From: Candidatus Sericytochromatia bacterium
Lineage (GTDB): Bacteria; Cyanobacteriota; Sericytochromatia; UBA7694
Direction: 5' to 3'
Assembly (NCBI GenBank): GCA_964229355.1
Contig: CAXRDE010000023.1
Span: 195,125-259,124 of the forward strand
Length of the DNA: 64,000 bases
The notes beneath the pieces were generated by a model that was given only the letters and a program-made list of their open reading frames with translations, was not told the DNA's origin and made no database searches. Every line of letters starts with the position of its first letter. The first letter of the stretch is position 1. The position numbers and the translations under genes are program-made. Positions 22,143 to 35,979 of this stretch are shown here, piece after piece.

Positions 22143-24047
22143 CTAGCGGATCAAGCTGTTCAAATCGTCAGTGATTAAATTATGGGTACTGATAATTTTT
22201 GAGATCGACGAGAATACTTTCTGGGCAATGCTCAACATGGGAATATATTCTGTGAGGGAAGCCTCAGAAGCTTCCAGGGCGTTTTGCGTCACAAAGGTGC
22301 GCGGGCGTTTGCCATGCACCGTATTCGATAACTCTACGTTACCCACATCAGAGACTCCCACGGATACCATTTCACCGGTGGTTTGGGTATTGGTGGTGTT
22401 CTTAAAGTCGGCATAAAGGCTTTCTGCACGCAGAATATTTCCACCGTTACGCAGCGTTAAAAATCCAGCCAGATTTTCGCCTGAAGAAGTCACATTAAAG
22501 GTGGCCACTGGACCGTTATCGATGCTGATTGAGATCTGCTGGTTACGATCCAGGCGAATCGCCACGCGATGCGAGGCTGCAGCATCTAAGTCAGCACTGG
22601 TGACACCCGCACCAATTGCTCCGATGTTAACTGCGGCGGCCAGAGGAACAGCAACTAAACCGGGGCCATATCCATCGGGACGCTGGCGGAGCACGACGTT
22701 ACCTGTGTTGGGGTTATATTGCAGCTCATACCCTCCCGAGTTAAACGAGTGCGGGTCATTTTGTCCAAACCCGAAGGTCACAATCCCGCCGTTGGTTACT
22801 TTCAAGTCCATAACCACATCAAACTGCTCGGTAGAAGAGGACTCTGAGATAATCATACTTCCGCCTGCAAAAGGTGCTACGGCTTCAGATTGAACATAAC
22901 CCGCCGTTTTGTTATGGGTATAAACAGGCAATGGATTAACGATCTGCTGTAAGGTCGGAGCCACAGCCCCCAGCATATTTTGACCGAATTGGTTAGCAGC
23001 CGGATTGCTAGAAATATCTTTAATATAGTTTTCAGCGCTGTTGTCAATGTCATCGCGACTGCGTATAAAGCGGCTGTCATTTCCCCCAAAAGCATAAACA
23101 TCTTGATAGGGATTGTCCAACTTAAAGAAACGGGCCAGAGCCAGTCCATTGGTTCCACTAAAAGCAATACGGTTATTAGCACCACCAGCTACAGTATTCT
23201 CAATAGAAAGACGGTCAGTGACCTCATCATAGGTAGCCGTTACGCCTGCCACACCGTTCAGCAACGTCAGAATATCATCAAGGGTTTGGCTGGGTACATC
23301 AGGAATAACCAGGGAACCATTTGCACCAAAATCAATGGTAGCGTCCGCATCAAGAACACTCGGTGGCAAAGCAGTAGAATAAATAAAACCCGGATCATCT
23401 ACAGTGGGAATAAAAATAGGATCATCATACACAAAGGTAATCCCATCGGTTCCGATGGAAAAGTCGTTTTTCACACGGGTGGTCAAATTGCCATCAATTT
23501 CAAACACGGTGGAGCCATACTGAGACATGCGCAGGTTATCGCGGTTCGCAAAGTCCAAAAGCAAAAAGTTTTTATTGCCATAGGTATCCAGCTCAGCAGA
23601 ATAACCGTCTTTATGAAAAATATCGCTTTGATCTTGCGGATCAAAACGAATGTAGTCGCGCCCGGCAGAAACCACTTTGAGTCCAGCGCTATTGACCAGA
23701 TACCCTTCGTTATCCCAGTGAAACTCACCGTCACGACTGACGTAATATTTATTGGAGCTTTCATTGTGCAAAACGAAGAAACCGTCGCCATTTAAAGCAA
23801 AGTGAGTGGACGCGTCAGAATTAACAACCGAACCCTGCCCCCACTCCACCTGGGTAGACTGAACGGTTAGGGTTGAAGGCGGAATCTGTAGATTCCCGGC
23901 AACGGAGTTAATCCCCAGACCGTCGGTAAAATTCGCTCGGGTGGTCTTGTAACCGGTGCGATTTGCACTTTGTAAATTTCCGTTAATCACGCCAATCCAT
24001 TGATTAACCGCAACCAGAGAATTAATCCCTATTCTATCGAGTGACAT
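22143..24047 (-). CDS. flagellar hook/rod family protein (FlgE-like, 634 aa)
   Basis: N-terminus GINSLVAVNQWIGVINGNLQSANRTGYKTTRANF matches the flg_bb_rod motif. The next block (STQVEWGQGSVVNSDASTHFALNGDGFFVL) follows the usual FlgE/FlgG spacing from the N-terminal motif. C-terminus LEASEASLTEYIPMLSIAQKVFSSISKIISTHNLITDDLNSLIR matches the FlgE/FlgG C-terminal helix. There is a large central insertion. Confidence 0.7.
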   Translation of the reverse strand: MSLDRIGINSLVAVNQWIGVINGNLQSANRTGYKTTRANFTDGLGINSVAGNLQIPPSTLTVQSTQVEWGQGSVVNSDASTHFALNGDGFFVLHNESSNKYYVSRDGEFHWDNEGYLVNSAGLKVVSAGRDYIRFDPQDQSDIFHKDGYSAELDTYGNKNFLLLDFANRDNLRMSQYGSTVFEIDGNLTTRVKNDFSIGTDGITFVYDDPIFIPTVDDPGFIYSTALPPSVLDADATIDFGANGSLVIPDVPSQTLDDILTLLNGVAGVTATYDEVTDRLSIENTVAGGANNRIAFSGTNGLALARFFKLDNPYQDVYAFGGNDSRFIRSRDDIDNSAENYIKDISSNPAANQFGQNMLGAVAPTLQQIVNPLPVYTHNKTAGYVQSEAVAPFAGGSMIISESSSTEQFDVVMDLKVTNGGIVTFGFGQNDPHSFNSGGYELQYNPNTGNVVLRQRPDGYGPGLVAVPLAAAVNIGAIGAGVTSADLDAAASHRVAIRLDRNQQISISIDNGPVATFNVTSSGENLAGFLTLRNGGNILRAESLYADFKNTTNTQTTGEMVSVGVSDVGNVELSNTVHGKRPRTFVTQNALEASEASLTEYIPMLSIAQKVFSSISKIISTHNLITDDLNSLIR

Positions 24048-24195
24048 ACATGACCCTTCCGTGTGCGAAAATACATTTCCATCATCATAACATTTCTTTT
24101 ATCATAGCAATTTTATACAGGATAACTCACCAGAAGAAAACCATTATTTAACACAATAACAACGTAAACAACGATTTTTAATCATTTTTTAAAAA

Positions 24196-26535
24196 TTAAC
24201 GGATTAAGCTGTTCATATCGTCCTGCATGGCGTTGCTGACACTAATGATTTTTGAAATGGAACCAAACACTTTCTGCGCCAGCCCCAACATGGGCAAATA
24301 CTCCGTTAAAGAAGCAGTAGAGCTCTCTAAAGCAGACTGAATGACACGGGTACTACTCTGGTTGTAAATGGCGTCATTGACTTCTTTGCGGGCATAAGCT
24401 TTAACACTGGTAGATATCATGGCCCCCGTGGCGTAGTGGTTGTATTGGGATTTGAAATCCGCATACATATTGTAGAGTTCGAGACGGTTCTGATAATGCC
24501 CCAGCGTCAAATAACCAATGCGGTCTGAAATATCGCCCAACAGCGAAAAAGACTGACTCACCCCGTCCACAGAGAAACTGAGTTCCCCGGCCTTGTCTAA
24601 TCGCACAGCAAAACGGTGCGGAGAGCCCCCCAGACCACTAATCACCGGTAAAGCCCCGGGAGCGCTATTGATTAAAACCGGAACGCCATTGGGATCCAGT
24701 TCTCGCTGAAAGAGGTAGACATCACCGGTTCCTGGATGATACTGCAAGGTGAAACCACCTGAATCTATCTGCCCCGGACGCTTCTGACCAAAATGCAATT
24801 CAATGAAAGACGCGTCGGTTTGCAAGTCCATGACCAGATCAAACTGCCCTGTGGCCTGGGCATGAGAAATCCCGAGAAAGCTGCGCTCTCCGTCAGCGAT
24901 CACCACATTGTTGAGTTTGTCATGGGTATAAGTGGCCGGAATACCCGAAGGATCAAAAACAGGCGTTGTATTGTCCGTCAGGTTGAGATGTTGATTAAAG
25001 GATCGTGTGGGCACCATCGCTGCCGTAATATCTAAACTGTGCTCACCGGGCACCGCTGAGTCCAGTACCCGAGAATTATCAATATCCTGGGTGCTGAGCA
25101 AACGGGAGCCAAAGAATACACCCTGTGATTCGAATTGTGGCGTTGCTCTATCCAGTTGAAAGAATTGTGCCAGAGCCTGGCCATTAGGCCCTTCAAAGAT
25201 AATACGTGTGTCTGGACGAATCATTTGCGCCAGAGGCATACTGGCCGCATCTTGCGGTGTAATTTGCGCAAAGGTGTTGGCAGAGGGTGGACTGTTATCG
25301 ATATTGCTCGTGCTGGTGATATTCTGCGCTCCGCCCCCGGTACTGGCAGAAAAAGGTGCCACATTAAAAAAGTCGGCGATGGCATCTCCGTTAATGCCAT
25401 CAAAACGGATACTATTATCTCCAATGGCCCCCGTGGTGTTGTTGAGCACCAACTGACGGGTCACCGTATTAAAACTGGCAGTAACATTCACGCCGTTCAC
25501 CGTAGCATAACGGTTAATTTCCTGCACAATCTGGTCAATGGTGGTGCGCTGGGGATCAAAACCCTGAAAGGTAAAAAAGCCGTTGTCTCCAAAATCAATG
25601 GCAAAATTACCCAGACGAAAATTGGGGTCCGCCACTTTGGGCTCTGCCAGATTCCGAATCTCTAAGCGATCGCTCACGGGGTCATAATCGGCGGTAATGG
25701 GGACATTGTTTGAAGTCCCGTAGAGATCAATGGCATTTTCCACATCGCGAATGGTGTGAACGGCAGGATCAAATTCAGACCCAAACACCGTTGCAAAGTC
25801 AAAAACACCGTTATTGCCCAAACGAATCCGAAAATTGGAAGACTCTGGCAACAAGGGATTAAAAGGTGCAAAACGGGGAATTTCCCGATTCCCCACATAA
25901 GGCAATTGCTTGGGGTCACTGTAAATAAACGTGAGGCCATCCGTACTGGTGTCAAAATTATTGTCAACCCGTAGGGGCAAGTCCCCGTCCACCTCAAACA
26001 CCGTGGCCCCATATTTTGAAAAACGCAGGCCGTCACGATTGGCCACGTCCACCACCATCAGGCTTTTATCGCCATAGCGCGCCAGTTGTTGTGATTCGCC
26101 GTCCGGGTCAAACAGATCAGATAAATCCTGGTTTCCTTTGCGCACAAAGTCCTGGCCGTTCGATAAGACGCGCAAGCCATTGCTGTTGCGTAAATAACCC
26201 TGGCCATCCCAGTGAAACTCGCCATCTCGGGTCAAAAAATATTTTCCGAGATCATCCACGAGCACAAAGAACCCCTGACCCTGTAATGCAAAATGGGCAG
26301 AAGAGTCTGAATTGCGCACCGAACCCTGCGCCCACTCTAAAGTGGTGGCTTGCACCCGCAAGGTGGGCGAGGGCACCTGAAAATTGGCCCATGTATTCAC
26401 GCTGCTATCCAGTAAAGAAACGCGGGTGGGCTTATAGGCAGTGCGGGAGGCGCCGTTCATATTGGCGCTGATTGTACTCATCCAGGAGTTAACGGCCAAT
26501 AGCCCGTTGACTCCAAGTTGTCCAAGGGTCCCCAT
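24196..26535 (-). CDS. flagellar hook/rod family protein (FlgE-like paralog, 779 aa)
   Basis: Same N-terminal (GVNGLLAVNSWMSTISANMNGASRTAYKPTRVSL ... AHFALQGQGFFVL) and C-terminal (LESSTASLTEYLPMLGLAQKVFGSISKIISVSNAMQDDMNSLIR) blocks as the neighbouring paralog. Its central region is even larger. Confidence 0.7.
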   Translation of the reverse strand: MGTLGQLGVNGLLAVNSWMSTISANMNGASRTAYKPTRVSLLDSSVNTWANFQVPSPTLRVQATTLEWAQGSVRNSDSSAHFALQGQGFFVLVDDLGKYFLTRDGEFHWDGQGYLRNSNGLRVLSNGQDFVRKGNQDLSDLFDPDGESQQLARYGDKSLMVVDVANRDGLRFSKYGATVFEVDGDLPLRVDNNFDTSTDGLTFIYSDPKQLPYVGNREIPRFAPFNPLLPESSNFRIRLGNNGVFDFATVFGSEFDPAVHTIRDVENAIDLYGTSNNVPITADYDPVSDRLEIRNLAEPKVADPNFRLGNFAIDFGDNGFFTFQGFDPQRTTIDQIVQEINRYATVNGVNVTASFNTVTRQLVLNNTTGAIGDNSIRFDGINGDAIADFFNVAPFSASTGGGAQNITSTSNIDNSPPSANTFAQITPQDAASMPLAQMIRPDTRIIFEGPNGQALAQFFQLDRATPQFESQGVFFGSRLLSTQDIDNSRVLDSAVPGEHSLDITAAMVPTRSFNQHLNLTDNTTPVFDPSGIPATYTHDKLNNVVIADGERSFLGISHAQATGQFDLVMDLQTDASFIELHFGQKRPGQIDSGGFTLQYHPGTGDVYLFQRELDPNGVPVLINSAPGALPVISGLGGSPHRFAVRLDKAGELSFSVDGVSQSFSLLGDISDRIGYLTLGHYQNRLELYNMYADFKSQYNHYATGAMISTSVKAYARKEVNDAIYNQSSTRVIQSALESSTASLTEYLPMLGLAQKVFGSISKIISVSNAMQDDMNSLIR

Positions 26536-26546
26536 GGTTGTATCCT

Positions 26547-27956
26547 TTATATCTTATGATCGAACCGCGAAGAGGGTCTCTGTTTTATCTTTTCTTCCGT
26601 TAAAACCGGTGGCGAGGGCACAGAAGCAACAGTATCCAGCCGTTCCAGATGCCAAAGTGGGTTGACCCGTTGATCACTGCTGAGCATCCACTGGTCAAGA
26701 ACATCTAAAAAGCCAGACAAGGCCTTCGTCCATGCTTCACCATCGGTCTGGAAAAGCCGTTCCTGTTGGGTAAGGGTTTCTAAAGCCGCCTGCAAATCCG
26801 GCTCTACCGTTAGCAAAGGAATGTACTGCCGCGCTAACCCTAACCATTCAGCAAGCTGCTCAATGTTCTTATTATACTCCACCTCAGGAGATTCCAGATC
26901 CAAAGGCGTTAAGCCCAAATAATGTGCTGCATGAGGGGAGACTTCAGACAGCTTTAGGGAGGTTTCAAGATCTTGAGCCTGAATACACAACGCCCCGTTT
27001 ACCAGTTCAAAGGAAATCCCCTGAGCGTTCACCTGAGGCTCAAGCAAAGCGAGCCATTCAGTCACAGAATTTACGCCTTCAAAACCCGTATAATGTTGAC
27101 CGTTTAAAGAAAATGAAATATCCATTTTTTGCTTCATATCTTGCAAATTCAAGGTATAAATGGGGGTTCCTGTTAAAGACTGAGGCAAGGGCTTTACCGA
27201 AAGGCCCATGGGAAACTCCAGCTGCAAACGGCCATCTTCCCACAGGATAGGCTCTGCAAACCCCTGACGGCGCAACTCATTTTCAAAAAGGTTTTGAACC
27301 TCAGCCTCCGTCAATGAGGCCACATAGGGAATCTGACATCCATAAACCCGCGACCCGATCTCGTAAGGTCCCCAAATCAAAAAAGGGGTTTCTCCTGCCT
27401 CATACTCCCAGGAGCTAAAGGTAGCGGGTAAGGGTAACTCCCCTTCACTTGTCGCCGTAAACGCACCGGTTATATTCCAGCCCGCCCTGGGAGCCATCGC
27501 ACTCAGCAAAATGCCCGAACCTTGCACCTGGACATCCCAGCCCAGCATTTGGAGATCACACTGCAGTAAGGCTGCCCAATAGTTCAAGACTTGCTTATAA
27601 GCCCGACCCTGTGCAAAAGTTTGACACACGGCACCCGGTAGTATCAGCTCCAGGGCATCAGATTCCCCCGGCGGGAAAAACGAGAGATTTAAATCAGGCA
27701 AGCGATAGGCTGCACTATTTTCGAGCCGCCAATGGGAAAGGTCGATATAAGCCTGGGCACAACGCCCCTGTAAAGGCGGCAACTCAAAGGCTTCAGAGGA
27801 CTTTACCCGATAGGTTTTCTGCGCAGGCCATTGCACAGGAGACGAAAAACAATATGCCACAGGAACCCGTGCGTGCCGCATCTGAAGCTCCGATAAAAGC
27901 TGATGACCTTTATGGAGTAAAATTAACAGTCGTGGACGAAGTGAAAAACTACTCAT
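26547..27956 (-). CDS. hypothetical protein translationally coupled to the FlgE-like gene
   Basis: 469 aa with no recognisable motif. Its stop is 11 nt upstream of the flgE-like ATG, and an AAGGA SD for the downstream gene lies inside its 3' end. An extended -10 (TGTTATAAT) sits 8 nt upstream of its ATG. Confidence 0.45.
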   Translation of the reverse strand: MSSFSLRPRLLILLHKGHQLLSELQMRHARVPVAYCFSSPVQWPAQKTYRVKSSEAFELPPLQGRCAQAYIDLSHWRLENSAAYRLPDLNLSFFPPGESDALELILPGAVCQTFAQGRAYKQVLNYWAALLQCDLQMLGWDVQVQGSGILLSAMAPRAGWNITGAFTATSEGELPLPATFSSWEYEAGETPFLIWGPYEIGSRVYGCQIPYVASLTEAEVQNLFENELRRQGFAEPILWEDGRLQLEFPMGLSVKPLPQSLTGTPIYTLNLQDMKQKMDISFSLNGQHYTGFEGVNSVTEWLALLEPQVNAQGISFELVNGALCIQAQDLETSLKLSEVSPHAAHYLGLTPLDLESPEVEYNKNIEQLAEWLGLARQYIPLLTVEPDLQAALETLTQQERLFQTDGEAWTKALSGFLDVLDQWMLSSDQRVNPLWHLERLDTVASVPSPPVLTEEKIKQRPSSRFDHKI

Positions 27957-28004: not shown

Positions 28005-29342
28005 ATGCAGCATTTATGGATTCTACAGGTCAATCCAGACCAGCTTTCTCTGGCTCTGTGGCTTGAACAAATACAACAGGGGCAACACCCCGCCGAAGGC
28101 ACGTGGCGACTTTCTCGGTTTCGCGATCACATCAACGCAGGAGATATACTCTGGTTCTGGCAGTCCGGTGAAGGCCTCATCGCGCAGGCAGAGTGCTTGA
28201 CAACAGCCCATCGCAGCCACGAAGATCCCGAGTTCAATTGGGAAATCGGCTACCGTTTGACCCACCAATGTATCCCTGTGCTTTCCCGTGCTTTCTTTCA
28301 GGAACTGGCGTCTCTTTCTCACATCAACTTTTTTAAGCGTCCCCAGGGCAATATCTTCAAAGTCCCCCCCGAATACACTCAGCTTTTAAGAGACAAAGCA
28401 CACCCCCATCTCCACAAGCTGAGCGTGCCCACTTCTGTTTTTTGGCCCGAGATCGCCCAGACCCTTCGCAAAACAGGCCTGGACCTTGAGGATCGGTCTG
28501 TAAGGCAGTACCATATGGCGCTAAAGAGCCATAGCCTGGTCATTTTGACCGGCCGCAGTGGCGTGGGAAAAAGCTGGCTCACGCGGGCTTACGCGCAGGC
28601 CGCCGGTGCGGCCTATCTTTTGGTGCCTGTGGCGCCGAATTGGATGGGGCCTGAGGATTTTTTAGGCTATTATAATGCGGTGAGCAGCGAATTTATACCC
28701 ACCGTCAGCAGTCAGTTTATTACCCAGGCCGCTCAAGAGTGGCATCAAGCCCAGCAAGAAGAAAGGCCTCCCCGGGCCTATCACCTGGTGCTTGACGAAA
28801 TGAACCTGGCCCGTACCGAATCTTACTTTGCTCCTTTGCTGTCCCTTTTAGAGGTGCGCCGCAGAGGAGAACAGACGTTTTACCAGCGCCTGGGGGCTGA
28901 AGACCTCGAAATTCCGCCAAATCTCTTTTGCATTGGCACCGCCAACACCGAAGACCAACGTCTCCATTTTTCAGAACGCATTGCCGATCGAGCTTTTGTG
29001 ATTACCCTTGTACCTTCAGCCATTCGTTTAGCGGACTTTTTTACCCCCCCTGAAGTGGCTTTGCTTCAAAATTTTTGGCAACCCCTAAGTCAATGTTTTC
29101 ACTTGAGTTACCGTACCTTGACGGATATACAAACTTACCTGCATCAGGCCCGTATCCATCAGGTGCCCCTCTCAGAAGCCCTGGATGAAGTCCTGGCCCA
29201 GAAAGTTTTTCATCGCCTTTCAACGGTGCCTGTGCATAGGCTACAGGCGTTAAAACATGCCTTGCCCCAGTCTTTTACGCTGTCCCATTTCGCGTTAAAC
29301 CAGCAACAACAGGGCCATTTTTCTTTGTATGCTGAACCTTAA
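28005..29342 (+). CDS. PUA/EVE-like domain fused to McrB-family AAA+ GTPase
   Basis: N-terminal ~130 aa: HLWILQVNP...GTWRLSRFRDHINAGDILWFWQSGEGLIAQAECL, an EVE/PUA-like pattern. The core aligns block-by-block with the E. coli McrB GTPase. Walker A is LTGRSGVGKS. VPVAPNWMGPEDFLGYY aligns with QFHQSYSYEDFI. LVLDEMNLARTESYFAPLLSLLE aligns with IIDEINRANLSKVFGE. IGTANTEDQR aligns with IGLMNTADRS. DRAF aligns with RRRF. Confidence 0.75.
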   Translation: MQHLWILQVNPDQLSLALWLEQIQQGQHPAEGTWRLSRFRDHINAGDILWFWQSGEGLIAQAECLTTAHRSHEDPEFNWEIGYRLTHQCIPVLSRAFFQELASLSHINFFKRPQGNIFKVPPEYTQLLRDKAHPHLHKLSVPTSVFWPEIAQTLRKTGLDLEDRSVRQYHMALKSHSLVILTGRSGVGKSWLTRAYAQAAGAAYLLVPVAPNWMGPEDFLGYYNAVSSEFIPTVSSQFITQAAQEWHQAQQEERPPRAYHLVLDEMNLARTESYFAPLLSLLEVRRRGEQTFYQRLGAEDLEIPPNLFCIGTANTEDQRLHFSERIADRAFVITLVPSAIRLADFFTPPEVALLQNFWQPLSQCFHLSYRTLTDIQTYLHQARIHQVPLSEALDEVLAQKVFHRLSTVPVHRLQALKHALPQSFTLSHFALNQQQQGHFSLYAEP

Positions 29343-30858
29343 ACTCTCATGGTTCGATGAGCGCGCACGCGTGATGTTGCACCCGGCCCCCTGGCAAAGC
29401 GCCCATCTTGAACTGGCAGATATTCCAGATCATTATGCCTGGCAAGATCTCCGCTTGTATACGCATCCCCTCAGTGCCGAAGCAACCCCTGTTTATCTCA
29501 AAAAGAAGCAAAAGCCCTACTTTCACCTGCACGCCGACTGGATGGCTGCAGAACCCGGCATGCATCATATGCGTCTGGTACACACCGCTCAACCCCAGGT
29601 TCCTCTCTGGGAAACCCATTTTTTTCTCGCAGCTCCGCCTTTAACGGAGGATCTGTGGTTAAAAATCCTGCAAGAGACCTATGAGCAAAGCCACCTGCGG
29701 TTTCAGCCTCAGCCACGGGTCCCCTTTCATGCGCAACCTGCTTTGAAACATACGCCCCCCAATATTATAAGCGAGTTCCACACCCTTTTTTCTCTCCTCG
29801 CTTATGAGCCAGGCTTACAAAACAGCCTAAAGCACCTTCCTTTTAACCCCGCGTTACAGTGGACGCCATTGTATCGCCTGCAAAAAGTATCACCTGCTCT
29901 CTTGTTTCGTCACGTGTCTGCGCAACCCTTACATACAACGGTTTTAGAAACCCGAACACGACCCGAAGTGCCACTGGCAAACTATGTAAGTTTTCTTGTT
30001 CAGGCTTTACTTTCTCGCCTTAAACATCTCTGTTATTTGCTTCCCCAATCCTTAAAAACCCATCCTTTTTTAATCGAGCACCTTCAGAGCATGGGGCGGC
30101 AGGGCACGCTACTCTGGCAAGCCTGGCAACACCATCCTTATGCCAAAGCGTTGCCCCAATGGGGGCCCCATGCCCTCGCTGAATTAGAAGCCCTGGTAGC
30201 CCAAACCCCGGCCCTGAAGGTCTGGGTACACTGCGCCCAATGTCTCACAATGAGCGTCAGGCCCGATTTAGCCCCCCATTATATCGCCATGGGTTATCAG
30301 GGATTTGGATATGTCTATCAAAGCTGGTGTACCGCTTTGCTTAAAAGCAGCTTACACAACGCCCTGCTACCCAGAGGCTGGCAAAGCGTAGCGGTACACC
30401 ACGACCCCAAAACCCTGTGCTGGGAACACATCGAAACGGGTCAGCGTCTGGCGTTACGGGCAGAGCAACGCTTTTTACCTGAAGGCCCCGGGCAAAGTGG
30501 CCCCTTCAGTATCAGTCGGGGTCAACAGCCCGATGTGTGTTTGCTCTGGTTTAAAGACATAGACCACTGGCTGCGGTTTTCACCCCACAAGGGCCTGGTG
30601 TTTGAAATTAAGTTTCGGCAAGAGGGACTTCGTCCTCGCAAAATCGATTTGGACCGACTGCATGCTTATCGCGATGCGATATACACACAAATAGACGGCA
30701 ACAACACCCCACTTTTCAGGGGCGGTGCCCTCCTTTATCCGGGACAGCACGAAAATTACCCTCCCGGCCTACAGGCACTGACCTGTTTACCCGCGAAGGA
30801 ACTCAAGCTAGAATACCTGCTCGCTTTACTGCTTACTCCAATTACTGCTCAAACCTAA
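29329..30858 (+). CDS. McrC-like PD-(D/E)xK nuclease partner
   Basis: 509 aa. It overlaps the upstream McrB-like gene by 14 nt. The C-terminal region QQPDVCLLWFKDIDHWLRFSPHKGLVFEIKFRQ has a PD...D...ExK arrangement like the McrC nuclease core. The N-terminal ~400 aa has no other recognisable domain. Confidence 0.55.
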   Translation: MLNLKLSWFDERARVMLHPAPWQSAHLELADIPDHYAWQDLRLYTHPLSAEATPVYLKKKQKPYFHLHADWMAAEPGMHHMRLVHTAQPQVPLWETHFFLAAPPLTEDLWLKILQETYEQSHLRFQPQPRVPFHAQPALKHTPPNIISEFHTLFSLLAYEPGLQNSLKHLPFNPALQWTPLYRLQKVSPALLFRHVSAQPLHTTVLETRTRPEVPLANYVSFLVQALLSRLKHLCYLLPQSLKTHPFLIEHLQSMGRQGTLLWQAWQHHPYAKALPQWGPHALAELEALVAQTPALKVWVHCAQCLTMSVRPDLAPHYIAMGYQGFGYVYQSWCTALLKSSLHNALLPRGWQSVAVHHDPKTLCWEHIETGQRLALRAEQRFLPEGPGQSGPFSISRGQQPDVCLLWFKDIDHWLRFSPHKGLVFEIKFRQEGLRPRKIDLDRLHAYRDAIYTQIDGNNTPLFRGGALLYPGQHENYPPGLQALTCLPAKELKLEYLLALLLTPITAQT

Positions 30859-30869
30859 GGAACAGCACC

Positions 30870-31787
30870 ATGAATACCCCCTCAACCCGACACAGTTTTA
30901 CCCTTCAAGTCCCCGCCACCACAGCGAACCTGGGGGCCGGCTATGATCTCCTGGGTGTGGCCCTGCAATACTATAATCAGCTGCATTTTCAGCTCAGCGA
31001 TCACTATGCCATGACCTTATCAGGACCTTATGGCAAGTCTCGTTTTCAGCTAGATGAAAAAAGTCTCATCTGGAAAGGCGTGGAACGGGTCTACCGCGCC
31101 GTCCAACGTCCCATGCCCTGTTTTAAGGTTGAGCAGCACATTGCCATTCCCCCATCCCGCGGTCTGGGCAGCAGTTCAAGCGCAATTGTGGCAGGACTCT
31201 ATGCGGCCAATCTCTGGTTAGACGAACCTTTCCGCAAAGAAGAGCTGCTGGTTTTCGCGACCGAAATCGAAGGGCATGCGGACAACGTGGCTCCCGCGTT
31301 ATTGGGGGGAGCCATCCTAAATTTCCCCGGTCAAACCCAGCCTTTTACCCGCCTGCCGGTGCCTGAACACTTGCACTGGGGGGTGTGTATTCCTGACTTC
31401 ACTTTAGAAACCCGTGTGGCCCGTGAAGTGATTCCCACCCATATTCCCCTGGCCGACGCCATTACCAACCTCAGCTATTTAAGTGCGTTTCTTGTGGGGC
31501 TACACACCGGGCAACCCGCACTCATCGCTCAGGGGATGCACGATCGCTTACACCAACCCTATCGACAGACTCTGGTACCGGGCATGCAGGCGGTGATGGA
31601 GACCGCCTGTGCCTCAGGTGCCCTGGGTTGCGTGCTCAGCGGTGCGGGCCCCAGCCTTTTGGTACTGGGGACTGAGCCCCTGACATCTGTGGGTCATAAG
31701 ATGTGCCAAATCTGGAAAAAACACCAAATCGAAGCACAGTTTGTGACCTGTCTTATTGACCTGAATGGGGTTGTCTGTCTAGACTGA
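30870..31787 (+). CDS. thrB: homoserine kinase
   Basis: N-terminal PATTANLGAGYDLLGVAL and the GHMP motif PPSRGLGSSSSAIVAG. An AAGGAA SD is present. It starts 11 nt after the McrC-like stop. Confidence 0.85.
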   Translation: MNTPSTRHSFTLQVPATTANLGAGYDLLGVALQYYNQLHFQLSDHYAMTLSGPYGKSRFQLDEKSLIWKGVERVYRAVQRPMPCFKVEQHIAIPPSRGLGSSSSAIVAGLYAANLWLDEPFRKEELLVFATEIEGHADNVAPALLGGAILNFPGQTQPFTRLPVPEHLHWGVCIPDFTLETRVAREVIPTHIPLADAITNLSYLSAFLVGLHTGQPALIAQGMHDRLHQPYRQTLVPGMQAVMETACASGALGCVLSGAGPSLLVLGTEPLTSVGHKMCQIWKKHQIEAQFVTCLIDLNGVVCLD

Positions 31788-33137: not shown

Positions 33138-34805
33138 ATGAACGACATTAAGTACAAAAAGAATAATTTTGGATCTTACTTACAGCGCTTTCCGGCCTTA
33201 GCCGTCACCGGTATATATATTACCTTTGGTTTACTTTGGATCATTTTCTCTGATCGGTTTCTGGAAGCCAGCTTTTCAAGCACCGCCCAGCCGCTGCTGC
33301 AAACCCTAAAAGGTTTTGCTTATGTACTCATAACCGGTTTACTCTTATACGGACTCATCCGTTATTTCACCCGTACCCTACGGCAACAAAACAAACGCTA
33401 TCGCTTACTGTTTGACGAAAATCCCTTACCCATGTGGATCTGCGATACCGAAACCTTAGCCATTCAAGACGTCAATCTTTCTGCCTGCCGACATTATGGT
33501 TATGAGCAAGGGCACTTTTTAACCCTCCGCATGGGGGATTTAGAGGCCGCCTCACCCCCTTTAATTCTCAAGCAACTCAATCAGCACTTACCCTCAGGCA
33601 CCCTGAAGCACTTTGATAAATACCAAAATCCCATGGACATTTGGATCAGCTACCGGCAGTTGCCTCAGGAACTTTTGATTGCCGCCCACGATATTACCCA
33701 ACAAAAAAACACCGAGCGTGCCCTGAGAGAAGCCAAAGACCATCTTGAAGTGTTCCACTCAGCTATCGACTCAGCCTTTATTTTGTTAACCCTCGATAGC
33801 AATCTCCGTATTCAAGACAGCAATACCCATGCGCGTAAAGCCCTGAAAGTTCAGAACACTGATGTCGCACCTCCTCTCAAGGCCTATGTACGCATCAGTT
33901 CACCCCCTCTGGATGCGTTACCCCCACTGTTGCGACCCAAAGCCCAGATTCCCTTAACCCTGCAGACCGACCAGGTGTGGATTCAAGGGATACTGATCTG
34001 CGGTTATGCCGATGAAGATCGGGATCCGCTCTACCTCTTTATTGGACAGGACATTACTGAACAAGAGCGTTTAAGACATAACCAGGCCCACATGCAAAAA
34101 AGCCTGATTCAACAAAACCAGGATCTTCAACAGTTCACTTACATCGTTTCACACAATTTGAGAGCACCCGTTGCCAATCAACTGGGACTTCTGCAATTGT
34201 TCAATCAAGAAAACCCAGAAGATCCCTTTAATCAAGAGTTATTAGACAAACTCAAAACCTCTGCTGAACGCATTGATAAAACCTTGCAAGATCTGAATAA
34301 TATTCTCAGCAGTCGCGGAGATATAGAACGGCAACAGGAGTGCATGATGCTGGATCTCTTATGCCAGGATATCTGGAAGCATTGCACGTCACTGATGCCC
34401 CATAAAAACGCCGCCTTAACGCTAGACTTAGAAGAAAATGAGGTGTGGAGCGCGCGGGCCTATTTGACCAGCATCTTTAATAATATTATTTCCAATGCCA
34501 TCAAGTACAGAAGCCCTGAGCGCCCCCTGCAATTGCACATTCACAGCACCCGTGTAGATCAGCAGATTAAAATCACCTTCCAGGACAACGGAAGGGGCAT
34601 CGACCTGGAGCGTTACGGTAACAAAATTTTTGGCTTTTATCAGCGCTTTCATCACGAGATCGAAGGGCGCGGCATGGGACTTTACCTGGTAAAAAATCAT
34701 GCTGAAAACCTCGGTGGCAGCATAGAGGTCGACAGCACGCCCGATGAAGGAACTTGCTTTACCCTCTGGCTACCGGCCAGGGGTAAACCCGCTAGCCGGG
34801 ATTGA
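33138..34805 (+). CDS. PAS-domain sensor histidine kinase
   Basis: N-terminal TM helices. The H-box is VSHNLRAPVANQ. The HATPase_c region has the N box (NNIISNAIKY), G1 (FQDNGRGID) and G2 (GRGMGLYLV) motifs. Confidence 0.8.
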   Translation: MNDIKYKKNNFGSYLQRFPALAVTGIYITFGLLWIIFSDRFLEASFSSTAQPLLQTLKGFAYVLITGLLLYGLIRYFTRTLRQQNKRYRLLFDENPLPMWICDTETLAIQDVNLSACRHYGYEQGHFLTLRMGDLEAASPPLILKQLNQHLPSGTLKHFDKYQNPMDIWISYRQLPQELLIAAHDITQQKNTERALREAKDHLEVFHSAIDSAFILLTLDSNLRIQDSNTHARKALKVQNTDVAPPLKAYVRISSPPLDALPPLLRPKAQIPLTLQTDQVWIQGILICGYADEDRDPLYLFIGQDITEQERLRHNQAHMQKSLIQQNQDLQQFTYIVSHNLRAPVANQLGLLQLFNQENPEDPFNQELLDKLKTSAERIDKTLQDLNNILSSRGDIERQQECMMLDLLCQDIWKHCTSLMPHKNAALTLDLEENEVWSARAYLTSIFNNIISNAIKYRSPERPLQLHIHSTRVDQQIKITFQDNGRGIDLERYGNKIFGFYQRFHHEIEGRGMGLYLVKNHAENLGGSIEVDSTPDEGTCFTLWLPARGKPASRD

Positions 34806-35979
34806 TATCATCATCTACCAGTTGGCTGCTACACTCTCGGTTATCGTAAGGAGGGGGCGTATTGTTTTGGGCCGCCTGCCTCAGGCGCTGATGCTCTTGT
34901 TCGTAGAAAGCGGCAATCTTGGGGGCGTTAATAATCAACGTGTTTTCGTTGTTGCGTTCTTCAGCACTCATCGAAAAATTATACGACCCTGTAATCACCA
35001 CCCGACGATCCACAATAAACGTCTTGCTATGGAGCAAAGCCTGGTTCCCGTCAATCATGACCGGAATATTTCGGGTGAGCAAATCCTGGTAAACGGAGTA
35101 TTGGCTGATCATACAGCCGTCGAAAATACCCTCTACAGCCACGCCCGCTCGCGCCTTTTGCACCAATAATTTTTGAATGTCTTTATCGGTGACCGAAAAA
35201 ACCGCAAAGCGAATACTTTTCTGCGCTTTGCTCAGGGTCTCAAGAATGGCCTGTTTAGTCCCCCCCTTGGGAGAGAAGTACGTCCGAAGGGTTCCCCCAT
35301 CGACTTTTACCACAGGATAAGGAATCAGATGATCATTGGGTCCTAAAAGCCCCTGCTCGAACATCCGATTAAATTCAGCCTGGTAATTTGCGGCCAATTG
35401 CGGAGACGAAATTTTCAGGGAGTTATTGTTATCGCGGTACAGGGAGTTATGGGTTAAATTGAGTGAGCCTGTCACCAACTCAACGCCGTCCATAATCATA
35501 AATTTATGATGCATAAGCGCGGTGCGGTCATCGCCCTTCACGGGAATGCCAGCTGCCATCAGAGACTGAATCGTGGCTGCACTGTGGCGGCCCCCACTTA
35601 GGCTATCGCTGTCTGTTAAAATCCGTACGCGCACACCCCGTTGATGGGCCTGAATTAAAGCCTCAATAATGCTGGGTTCGGTAATATCATAGACCGCCAG
35701 GTCTAAGCTTTTCTGGGCCCGCTGTACCAGTTCCACAAAAATCTTGTCGGGATTCTGAGGATCCTGGCGGCCCGCTTTTTCGTTGTTGACGTAAAGCTCA
35801 TGGTAGGCATTGTTGAATTTCACCGCGATATCACCATACTCCACAGGAGCATTAAAAGCCTGGAGGCCTGGGGCGGGATTCAAAGCCCGGCCATTCATGA
35901 GCGGCCCCTGCAGCGCGCGGGACTGGCATGCCACCAGTGGAATGAAGCCAAGAGCAAGAAGAGAACGAAGTAAAGTCAT
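34792..35979 (-). CDS. secreted phospholipase D / HKD-family protein (two HKD motifs)
   Basis: Signal peptide MTLLRSLLALGFIPLVACQ. The first HKD motif is HHKFMIMDGVELVTGSLNLT and the second is HSKTFIVDRRVVITGSYNFS. Its 3' end overlaps the convergent HK gene by 14 nt. Confidence 0.75.
   Translation of the reverse strand: MTLLRSLLALGFIPLVACQSRALQGPLMNGRALNPAPGLQAFNAPVEYGDIAVKFNNAYHELYVNNEKAGRQDPQNPDKIFVELVQRAQKSLDLAVYDITEPSIIEALIQAHQRGVRVRILTDSDSLSGGRHSAATIQSLMAAGIPVKGDDRTALMHHKFMIMDGVELVTGSLNLTHNSLYRDNNNSLKISSPQLAANYQAEFNRMFEQGLLGPNDHLIPYPVVKVDGGTLRTYFSPKGGTKQAILETLSKAQKSIRFAVFSVTDKDIQKLLVQKARAGVAVEGIFDGCMISQYSVYQDLLTRNIPVMIDGNQALLHSKTFIVDRRVVITGSYNFSMSAEERNNENTLIINAPKIAAFYEQEHQRLRQAAQNNTPPPYDNRECSSQLVDDDINPG

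What the first reader, a model, noticed from the sequence alone, without database searches (positions are those of the whole stretch)
28005..30858. EVE/PUA-like reader fused to McrB-type GTPase plus McrC-like PD-ExK nuclease: candidate modification-dependent restriction module
- The core of the first gene matches the hallmark McrB GTPase blocks one by one.
- Its N-terminus is not the canonical McrB DNA-binding domain. It is a ~130-aa domain with an EVE/PUA-like signature (WIL.VNP ... GDILWFWQSG ... IAQAEC).
- The second gene overlaps by 14 nt and ends in a PD...D...EIK nuclease-like motif, as expected for McrC.
- EVE-McrB fusions have been described as a class of predicted modified-base sensors. 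To my knowledge this particular pair is uncharacterised, and it would be the only defence-like cassette in the window.
- The GTP-specificity element appears as ANTED rather than NTAD.
Basis: partly seen in the sequence, partly recalled or inferred. Interest (0 to 1): 0.7.

Follow-up and report, generated by a model that had tools for sequence, protein, structure and literature searches.

The report
EVE-McrB plus McrC restriction pair
Two overlapping genes encode a modified-base reader fused to a McrB-type motor and its McrC-type nuclease partner, which is a divergent but ordinary member of a predicted class of modification-dependent restriction systems, unusual mainly because related bacteria keep it at the same housekeeping locus.

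Summary
ORF A (28005-29342, 445 aa) and ORF B (29329-30858, 509 aa) overlap by 14 nt, and every quoted motif is present.

A is an EVE domain (aa 1-140) fused to a McrB-like AAA+ core. The window protein has no Pfam EVE hit of its own. However, 25 of 32 orthologs do, the family profile hits PDB 2eve (3.6e-8), and a confident model (pLDDT 93) matches EVE structures first. McrB GTPases are the best solved matches for the core.

The McrB core belongs to the experimentally uncharacterised "NxD" branch of Bell et al. 2024. Here the motif reads N-x-E.

Both genes are under purifying selection (dN/dS 0.10 and 0.21). They sit at the same housekeeping locus in Sericytochromatia-like relatives whose A proteins are only about 40% identical.

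This is a new member of a computationally known kind, of modest interest.

The parts
28005..29342 (+). Gene A: EVE-McrB-like fusion protein, 445 aa
   Evidence: ORF. AAA_5 hit. PDB McrB hits. 315 homologs. dN/dS 0.10 against L094.
28005..28424 (+). EVE (PUA-like) predicted modified-base reader domain, aa 1-140
   Evidence: 25 of 32 orthologs hit PF01878. Profile hits 2eve at 3.6e-8. AF2 pLDDT 92.9. Foldseek top five hits are all EVE structures, TM 0.66-0.73. Domain dN/dS 0.18.
28452..29009 (+). McrB-like AAA+ NTPase core, about aa 150-335
   Evidence: AAA_5 aa 179-329. PADLOC PDC-M26A 5.6e-34. Aligned to T. gammatolerans and E. coli McrB. Domain dN/dS 0.05.
28551..28574 (+). Walker A, GRSGVGKS (aa 183-190)
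   Evidence: G183, G186, G188 and K189 are invariant in 32 orthologs. Aligned to GPPGTGKT of T. gammatolerans McrB.
28785..28805 (+). Walker B, LVLDEMN (aa 261-267)
   Evidence: L263, D264, E265 and N267 are invariant. Aligned to IIDEIN of McrB.
28944..28955 (+). McrB signature motif N314-T-E316-D317, an NxE variant of the NxD-branch motif
   Evidence: N314 is invariant. 108 of 120 homologs read NxD, 104 of them NxDE. 11 read NxE, including the window's subclade. Motif classes as in Bell et al. 2024.
29329..30858 (+). Gene B: McrC-type partner, 509 aa (Ig-like sandwich + DUF2357-like helical region + PD-(D/E)xK nuclease)
29329..29628 (+). N-terminal Ig-like beta-sandwich of B, about aa 1-100
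29641..30378 (+). Helical, DUF2357-like McrB-interacting region of B, about aa 105-350
   Evidence: Helices 107-349 with a predicted beta-hairpin at 172-212. DUF2357 hits in 76 of 85 family representatives, but not in the window protein alone. Boundaries are approximate.
30406..30798 (+). PD-(D/E)xK nuclease domain of B, about aa 360-490. Catalytic D402 is at nt 30532-30534 and E426-I-K428 at nt 30604-30612.
   Evidence: PDDEXK_7 aa 362-474, E 8.4e-4, below the gathering score. P401, D402, K428, H445, Y447 and D449 are invariant in 85 representatives. E426 is invariant apart from one D among the orthologs.
29329..29342 (+). 14-nt overlap between the end of A and the start of B
   Evidence: Orthologous pairs also overlap in L003, L005, L086, L087 and L088.
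30856..30872 (+). Junction between B and thrB: stop codon TAA, an 11-nt spacer, then the thrB ATG. An AAGGA Shine-Dalgarno-like sequence spans the stop codon.
   Evidence: Sequence. No terminator-like site between B and thrB. The same tight junction occurs in L002-L004 and L095.

Best explanation
The two genes encode a McrBC-type, modification-dependent (Type IV) restriction enzyme.

Proposed mechanism:
- The N-terminal EVE domain of protein A recognises a modified base, probably flipped out of foreign DNA.
- The McrB-like AAA+ core of A assembles into a ring. It hydrolyses nucleotide (GTP by analogy with McrB) when protein B inserts its DUF2357-type N-terminal region.
- The C-terminal PD-(D/E)xK domain of B (D402, E426, K428) then cuts the DNA.

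Shown here: domain identities, conservation of catalytic residues, the conserved operon pairing, and purifying selection.

Inferred: the substrate (DNA rather than RNA), which modification is read, GTP use, ring assembly, and the defence role.

The pair belongs to the NxD branch of McrB GTPases but is not a CoCoNuT. In this Sericytochromatia-like lineage it is inherited mostly vertically at one housekeeping locus.
For: Protein A:
- AAA_5 hit, 1.3e-11.
- Best solved relatives are McrB GTPases from T. gammatolerans and E. coli.
- Walker A, Walker B, N314 and D328-R329 are conserved in 32 orthologs.

EVE domain:
- Family-level Pfam hits in 25 of 32 orthologs.
- Profile hit to 2eve, 3.6e-8.
- High-confidence model whose top five fold matches are EVE structures, followed by 5mC-bound THYN1 and VcaM4I.

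Protein B:
- 85 of 85 family representatives hit PDDEXK_7 and 76 of 85 hit DUF2357. Bell et al. 2024 used both as McrC models.
- P401, D402 and K428 are invariant, with an acidic residue at 426.
- The Ig-like N-terminal sandwich matches what Bell et al. describe for partners of NxD-branch McrB.

Pairing and selection:
- A and B are adjacent or overlapping in every locus examined, in three different genomic contexts, and in a Deinococcus plasmid homolog.
- dN/dS is 0.10 for A and 0.21 for B.
- In relatives the same AAA+ core is fused to other N-terminal modules (TPR, DUF3578), the modular pattern typical of McrB.
Against: - The window proteins themselves fail three direct HMM tests: Pfam EVE and PF10117 McrBC do not hit, and NCBIfam McrB scores 24 bits against a cutoff of 637.
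- B hits no PADLOC model.
- The B structural model is poor in the nuclease region (pLDDT 65.8 overall), so the McrC fold match rests on 125 aligned residues.
- According to Bell et al. 2024, no NxD-branch McrB has been characterised. Here the D of that motif is E.
- The genomic setting is atypical for defence genes. Neighbours are housekeeping genes, the position is conserved across deep divergence, B is tightly joined to thrB-ask, and no methyltransferase, integrase or other defence gene was seen nearby.
- The nearly invariant Y69 of the EVE domain is H in the window protein.
Confidence: 0.75

Rival explanations
1. The pair is a McrBC descendant co-opted for a host, non-defence function. Examples would be surveillance or processing of the cell's own modified DNA, or a chromosome- or cell-cycle-linked role. 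It would have been retained as a core gene pair and expressed together with thrB-ask.
For: - The chromosomal position is the same in the window, L002-L005 and L086, although A falls to 38-41% identity and B to 26-27%.
- Flanking genes are housekeeping: ATP synthase, thrB and aspartate kinase.
- The B-thrB spacer is 11 nt, the SD-like sequence overlaps the stop codon, and there is no terminator.
- Both genes are under purifying selection.
- There is a precedent for a co-opted McrB-family protein: PcdA of S. aureus (abstract listed).
Against: - The nuclease triad and all NTPase motifs are intact.
- The pair also occurs alone in unrelated contexts (L087, L088).
- It is absent from the otherwise syntenic locus L089. 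That patchiness fits an accessory gene pair.
- B and the EVE domain evolve much faster than their neighbours, as expected for defence specificity modules.
Confidence: 0.1
2. The system targets modified RNA rather than DNA, as Bell et al. proposed for the CoCoNuT members of the same NxD branch. The EVE domain would act as a reader of RNA modifications, as YTH domains do.
For: - The McrB core carries the NxD-type motif shared with the CoCoNuTs.
- B has the Ig-like N-terminal domain typical of that branch.
- The EVE model also matches m6A-RNA-binding YTH domains, though more weakly (E about 1e-3, TM about 0.5).
Against: - No coiled-coil, cold-shock, HEPN or other RNA-linked domain is present.
- B retains an intact PD-(D/E)xK nuclease.
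- The closest fold matches are EVE proper, DNA-bound THYN1 and the VcaM4I restriction endonuclease, all ahead of YTH.
Confidence: 0.08
3. The pair is a decaying or inactive relic. The diverged EVE domain (no direct Pfam hit, Y69H) and the altered signature motif (NxE) would indicate loss of function.
For: - The window's subclade has lost direct Pfam EVE detectability.
- The motif D is replaced by E.
- Y69 is replaced by H in the window protein.
Against: - Both ORFs are full length in all orthologs that are not cut by a contig end.
- dN/dS is 0.05-0.21 in every domain.
- Catalytic residues are invariant.
- D-to-E keeps the carboxylate and is conserved within the subclade.
- The EVE model is very confident.
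Confidence: 0.05

Closest known systems
EVE-McrB fusions with McrC (class defined computationally by Bell, Wolf and Koonin 2020, PMC7641849)
   Same: N-terminal EVE reader fused to a McrB-like GTPase, followed by a PD-(D/E)xK McrC gene. The paper describes this as the commonest EVE architecture in defence systems, found in nearly 300 genera.
   Different: The paper reports the class as most abundant in Firmicutes and Bacteroidetes. This member comes from a Sericytochromatia-like lineage. Its EVE domain is too diverged for a direct Pfam hit.
NxD-branch, non-CoCoNuT McrBC systems (Bell et al. 2024, eLife, PMC11090510)
   Same: The signature motif is of the N-x-D(E) type across the core family. 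The McrC partner has an Ig-like N-terminal sandwich, then DUF2357, then PD-(D/E)xK.
   Different: The window's subclade reads N-x-E instead of N-x-D. No methyltransferase was seen next to the pair, and no two-component genes lie in the A-B operon. The nearest is a histidine-kinase-like ORF at 33138-34805, beyond thrB-ask. It lacks the coiled-coils and extra nucleases that define CoCoNuTs.
E. coli K-12 McrBC
   Same: A two-gene operon with McrB first. It has an AAA+ core with Walker A, Walker B, a signature Asn and an Arg-finger region, and a partner carrying a PD-(D/E)xK nuclease.
Thermococcus gammatolerans McrBC (YTH-McrB, PDB 6ut3/6ut5)
   Different: It has a canonical NTAD (NxxD) motif and a YTH rather than an EVE reader. 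Its McrC is shorter (329 aa) and lacks the Ig-like domain.
PADLOC candidate system PDC-M26 (component A)
   Same: The A core matches PDC-M26A at 5.6e-34.
   Different: Only aa 150-287 align, to positions 306-434 of a 724-position profile. B matches no PADLOC model.

Membership tests
McrB-like GTPase (AAA_5 branch of AAA+) | Walker A and Walker B motifs | tested here: met
   GRSGVGKS (aa 183-190) and LVLDEMN (aa 261-267). G183, G186, G188, K189, D264, E265 and N267 are invariant in 32 orthologs.
McrB-like GTPase (AAA_5 branch of AAA+) | Nx(xx)D signature motif with an invariant Asn | tested here: met
   N314 is invariant. The motif is N-T-E-D. The core family reads NxD(E) in 108 of 120 homologs. 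The window's subclade keeps the acid as E316. This is a variant form, and the activity of NxE is untested.
McrB-like GTPase (AAA_5 branch of AAA+) | Sequence similarity to characterised McrB GTPases above other AAA+ proteins | tested here: met
   The top PDB hits are T. gammatolerans and E. coli McrB. Midasin (AAA_5) comes only after the McrB and EVE hits. A is not an equivalog of E. coli McrB (NCBIfam 24 bits against a cutoff of 637).
McrB-like GTPase (AAA_5 branch of AAA+) | Hexamer formation and McrC-stimulated GTP hydrolysis | not testable with these tools
   Needs biochemistry or a structure.
EVE domain (PF01878, PUA-like) | Match to the Pfam EVE model | tested here: inconclusive
   The window protein has no hit at E up to 1. 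25 of 32 aligned orthologs hit, best 3.3e-10.
EVE domain (PF01878, PUA-like) | Homology and fold shared with the solved EVE structures (2eve and relatives) | tested here: met
   The profile hits 2eve (3.6e-8), 2gbs, 2g2x, 2ar1 and 1zce. The AF2 model (pLDDT 92.9) has those five as its top Foldseek hits, TM 0.66-0.73.
EVE domain (PF01878, PUA-like) | Binding of a modified base | not testable with these tools
   Conserved aromatic residues W5, W34, W52 and F118 and the FWQSG motif fit a binding pocket, but this was not tested.
McrC (DUF2357 + PD-(D/E)xK nuclease) | C-terminal PD-(D/E)xK nuclease with catalytic D...(D/E)xK | tested here: met
   P401, D402 and K428 are invariant in 85 representatives, with E or D at position 426. 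PDDEXK_7 hits 85 of 85 representatives. The window protein's own hit is 8.4e-4, just under the cutoff.
McrC (DUF2357 + PD-(D/E)xK nuclease) | N-terminal DUF2357 (PF09823) McrB-interacting domain | tested here: inconclusive
   The window protein has no direct hit. 76 of 85 full-length family representatives hit, best 9.7e-34. The model shows a helical region with a beta-hairpin.
McrC (DUF2357 + PD-(D/E)xK nuclease) | Match to the Pfam McrBC model PF10117 (E. coli-type McrC) | tested here: not met
   The window protein has no hit. Only 3 of 85 family representatives hit. B is therefore a DUF2357/PDDEXK_7-type McrC, not the E. coli type.
McrC (DUF2357 + PD-(D/E)xK nuclease) | Structural similarity to solved McrC | tested here: inconclusive
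McrC (DUF2357 + PD-(D/E)xK nuclease) | Encoded immediately downstream of mcrB in one operon | tested here: met
   14-nt overlap in the window. The pairing is kept in all orthologous loci.
CoCoNuT systems (Bell et al. 2024) | Long coiled-coils fused to or associated with the McrB GTPase, plus tandem extra nucleases or RNA-binding domains | tested here: not met
   A is only EVE plus the AAA+ core (445 aa). No extra domain hits were found, and no additional system genes are conserved with the pair. Only the NxD-type motif and the Ig-like McrC N-terminus are shared.

The most novel reading that the evidence does not exclude
The most novel reading not excluded is this. In this Sericytochromatia-like lineage, a McrBC-type machine with an NxE signature motif has become a vertically inherited, near-core gene pair. 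It would be co-transcribed with thrB-ask and would serve a host function, reading a modified base in the cell's own nucleic acid, rather than or in addition to phage restriction.
Probability: 0.1. Interest if true: 0.7.

Novelty: new member of a known kind. Interest (0 to 1): 0.3.

Why it matters
EVE-McrB/McrC systems are a large class of modified-base sensors that exists only as a prediction. According to Bell et al. 2024, no McrB of the NxD branch has been studied experimentally.

This pair is a compact representative of that branch: two genes, 445 and 509 aa, with no accessory domains. It has a confidently modelled EVE domain and intact catalytic motifs, so it would be a reasonable candidate for biochemistry.

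Its stable position in a housekeeping neighbourhood across deep divergence is a minor evolutionary curiosity. It could help show how restriction systems become fixed in a lineage. Otherwise the finding is ordinary, because the architecture has already been catalogued.

Tried and rejected
1. Direct HMM assignment of the window proteins. There was no Pfam EVE, PF10117 or DUF2357 hit, and the NCBIfam McrB score was far below cutoff. I used family-level scans and profiles instead.

2. Sequence search of B, and of the 85-member B profile, against PDB sequences. Nothing was found.

3. Deepening the B alignment through the word-indexed protein search with a profile. It returned the same 11 proteins, so the B structure model stayed shallow and poor.

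4. The idea that the divergent upstream 469-aa protein (26547-27956, -) is a third component of the system. It co-occurs with the pair at the syntenic locus. However, the unknown neighbour of the pair in L087 is unrelated (hhalign probability 0.4%), L088 has no counterpart, and the protein sits in the hook-gene operon. Rejected.

5. A metagenome scan anchored on the hook protein, meant to count occupied and empty sites. It gave only one informative locus, L089, which is empty. That is too few for a frequency.

6. The genome-contig scan.

7. Cluster look-ups for organism names. None were returned. Taxonomy rests on the names attached to L005 and P0026 (Candidatus Sericytochromatia), L086 (Cyanobacteria_JACYMC01) and P0018 (Obscuribacterales).

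8. PADLOC hits elsewhere in the window (DrmC, subtilase, PycC and others). These are generic-domain matches and do not form a second system.
Full report
**Observation.** The window holds two same-strand ORFs exactly where reported. Gene A is 28005-29342 (445 aa) and gene B is 29329-30858 (509 aa). They overlap by 14 nt.

**Gene A, core.**
- Pfam gives AAA_5 (1.3e-11, aa 179-329) and nothing else specific.
- NCBIfam's E. coli McrB equivalog scores 24 bits against a cutoff of 637. A is therefore not an ortholog of E. coli McrB.
- The best solved relatives are nevertheless McrB GTPases. For the single protein, T. gammatolerans gives 4e-8 and E. coli 1e-6. With a 32-ortholog profile these improve to 2e-12 and 2e-9, ahead of midasin.
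- In the 32-ortholog alignment, Walker A (G183, G186, G188, K189), Walker B (D264, E265, N267), the signature Asn N314 and D328 are invariant, and R329 is nearly invariant.
- PADLOC's candidate-system model PDC-M26A matches the core at 5.6e-34.

**Gene A, signature motif.** Bell et al. 2024 divide McrB GTPases by the Nx(xx)D motif into NxD, NxxD and NxxxD branches. They state that no NxD enzyme has been characterised, and that the D is usually followed by E or D.
- Among the 120 listed homologs of A, 108 read N-x-D, and 104 of those read N-x-D-E. Eleven read N-x-E and one reads N-x-P-E.
- The window protein reads N-T-E-D. Its closest orthologs read NAED, NTES, NREQ, NREH and NQEH.
- The conserved acid is therefore E316, which aligns with the D of NxD. 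D317 is not conserved.
It is better described as an NxE variant of the NxD branch.

**Gene A, N-terminal domain.**
- The window protein has no Pfam EVE hit even at E up to 1.
- Orthologs at about 40% identity carry PF01878, and 25 of 32 aligned family members hit it, best 3.3e-10.
- A profile of aa 1-140 hits the founding EVE structure 2eve (3.6e-8, full length), and also 2gbs, 2g2x, 2ar1 and 1zce.
- An AlphaFold2 model of aa 1-140 is confident (pLDDT 92.9, pTM 0.87).
- Its Foldseek matches in PDB are those five EVE structures first (TM 0.66-0.73). Next come human THYN1 bound to 5mC DNA, the VcaM4I restriction endonuclease, and then YTH domains.
- The EVE assignment is therefore solid. The ligand is unknown.
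- The nearly invariant Y69 is H in the window protein.

**Gene B.**
- Pfam gives only a sub-threshold PDDEXK_7 hit (8.4e-4, aa 362-474). There is no PF10117 McrBC hit, no PADLOC or NCBIfam hit, and no sequence match to any solved structure.
- The word-indexed search finds only 11 orthologs.
- An exhaustive profile search of 1.84 billion representatives finds 387 relatives at E up to 1e-3, many of them full length.
- Of 85 sampled relatives, all hit PDDEXK_7 (best 4e-35), 76 hit DUF2357 (best 1e-33) and 3 hit PF10117.
- Bell et al. 2024 used PF04411/COG1700 and PF09823 as the McrC nuclease and McrC N-terminal models. B is therefore a divergent McrC of the DUF2357/PDDEXK_7 type.
- P401, D402, K428, H445, Y447 and D449 are invariant across the 85 representatives. 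Position 426 is E in the orthologs (D in one) and D in the wider consensus. The catalytic D...(D/E)xK motif is intact.
- The AF2 model is mediocre (pLDDT 65.8, and poor across much of the nuclease region). It is good for an N-terminal beta-sandwich (aa 1-100) and for the helical region.
- Bell et al. report an Ig-like N-terminal sandwich, absent from E. coli McrC, in McrC partners of NxD-branch GTPases, including non-CoCoNuT ones. This independently agrees with the motif-based placement of A.

**Selection.**
- Against the closest available DNA orthologs, dN/dS is 0.10 for A (L094) and 0.21 for B (L095).
- Within A it is 0.18 for the EVE domain, 0.05 for the AAA+ core and 0.11 for the C-terminal region.
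- Both genes are maintained by purifying selection, so a relic is unlikely.

**Genomic context.** The window is otherwise housekeeping: ATP synthase, EPSP synthase, methionine synthase, aspartate kinase and similar genes.
- Upstream and divergent, 48 bp away, lies an operon of an unknown 469-aa protein and two large FlgE-like hook proteins, followed by atpF'/F/H/A.
- Downstream, thrB starts 11 nt after B's stop codon. A Shine-Dalgarno-like AAGGA spans that stop codon and no terminator-like site intervenes. Aspartate kinase follows.
- The same arrangement appears in L002-L004 (A 59-60% identical), in L086 ('Cyanobacteria_JACYMC01', A 41%), and on the upstream side in L005 (NCBI 'Candidatus Sericytochromatia', A 38%).
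- Identity gradients are broadly congruent with vertical descent. Window against L003: aspartate kinase 92%, atpH 91%, hook proteins 67-69%, thrB 68%, A 59%, B 45%, unknown protein 39%. Window against L086: aspartate kinase 74%, atpH 54%, hook proteins 47-51%, A 41%, B 27%.
- The pair is not universal at this site, however. L087 and L088 carry it alone in unrelated neighbourhoods. L089 has the hook genes and ATP synthase without the pair or the 469-aa gene.
- The 469-aa protein is not a conserved third component.
- Relatives of the AAA+ core are fused to other N-terminal modules: TPR in Nostoc, and DUF3578 on a Salinibacter plasmid. They are paired with 'DUF2357 domain-containing' proteins on a Deinococcus megaplasmid. 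This is the modular pattern typical of McrB.

**Interpretation.** The best-supported reading (confidence about 0.75) is a McrBC-type, modification-dependent restriction enzyme.
- The EVE domain reads a modified base.
- The McrB-like ring hydrolyses nucleotide when engaged by the DUF2357 region of B.
- B's PD-(D/E)xK domain then cleaves.
- Domain identities, catalytic-residue conservation, operon pairing and selection are shown here. Substrate, specificity, nucleotide preference, ring assembly and the defence role are inferred from E. coli and T. gammatolerans McrBC and from the EVE literature.

Rivals are a co-opted host function (about 0.10), RNA targeting as proposed for CoCoNuTs (about 0.08), and an inactive relic (about 0.05). 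The co-option reading is suggested by the stable housekeeping locus and the thrB junction. It is weakened by the intact nuclease and the patchy distribution.

**Comparison and novelty.** The architecture is already catalogued. Bell et al. 2020 call EVE-McrB the commonest EVE defence architecture. Bell et al. 2024 describe NxD-branch McrBC with Ig-DUF2357-nuclease partners.
- The pair is not a CoCoNuT: it has no coiled-coils and no extra nucleases.
- It is not an E. coli-type McrBC: there is no DUF3578 reader and no PF10117 hit.
- What is particular here is the lineage, the diverged EVE domain, the NxE motif, and the long-term syntenic retention next to thrB-ask.

I rate it a new member of a known kind, interest 0.3.

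Noticed in passing
window 22143-27956 (-): An operon of an unknown 469-aa protein and two large FlgE/LlgE_F_G_D1-like 'hook' paralogs (779 and 634 aa) sits directly upstream of the ATP synthase b'/b/delta/alpha genes. The unknown protein has an invariant C-terminal FDHKI and evolves fast. The arrangement is conserved in L002-L005 and L086. L089 has the two hook genes but not the 469-aa gene. The function of this cluster is unknown.
   Followed up: partly
window 30856-30872, and L002-L004, L095: The stop codon of B and the start codon of thrB are only 11 nt apart in the window (11-17 nt in the relatives). In the window a Shine-Dalgarno-like AAGGA spans the stop codon and there is no terminator-like site. 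The restriction-like pair may therefore be co-transcribed with thrB and aspartate kinase. A sigma-70-like site at 30786-30814 could also drive thrB separately.
   Followed up: partly
window 34792-35979 (-): A two-domain PLD-family protein with a lipoprotein-like signal peptide (MTLLRSLLALGFIPLVAC) hits many PADLOC DrmC models, best 2e-26. It is syntenic and 79-81% identical in L002-L004. It is probably a secreted PLD nuclease or phospholipase rather than part of a DISARM system.
   Followed up: partly
window 28209-28211 (A residue 69): The nearly invariant Tyr of the EVE 'AY' motif is His in the window protein only. The 80%-identical ortholog P0002 keeps Tyr. This could alter ligand specificity.
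   Followed up: no
P0025/P0026 (L005) and the window subclade P0001-P0009: The D-to-E change in the McrB signature motif (NxE) occurs in two groups of orthologs that are each only about 38% identical to the other. The syntenic L086 ortholog keeps NxD. The change may have arisen twice.
   Followed up: no
P0032-P0069 (Nostoc, Coleofasciculus), L093 (Salinibacter plasmid pSR76), L092 (Deinococcus sp. QL22 plasmid): The same NxDE-type AAA+ core is fused to TPR repeats in filamentous cyanobacteria, to DUF3578 in a very long Salinibacter protein, and to a 1175-aa 'AAA family ATPase' in Deinococcus. The Deinococcus gene is followed by a DUF2357 protein and, about 2 kb further downstream, a tubulin-like protein gene.
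   Followed up: no
L089 1-10000: A related metagenomic contig (atpA 83% identical) has the two hook genes and ATP synthase. Ordinary housekeeping genes occupy the place of the 469-aa gene and the A-B pair. It is an 'empty site' for the cassette.
   Followed up: partly
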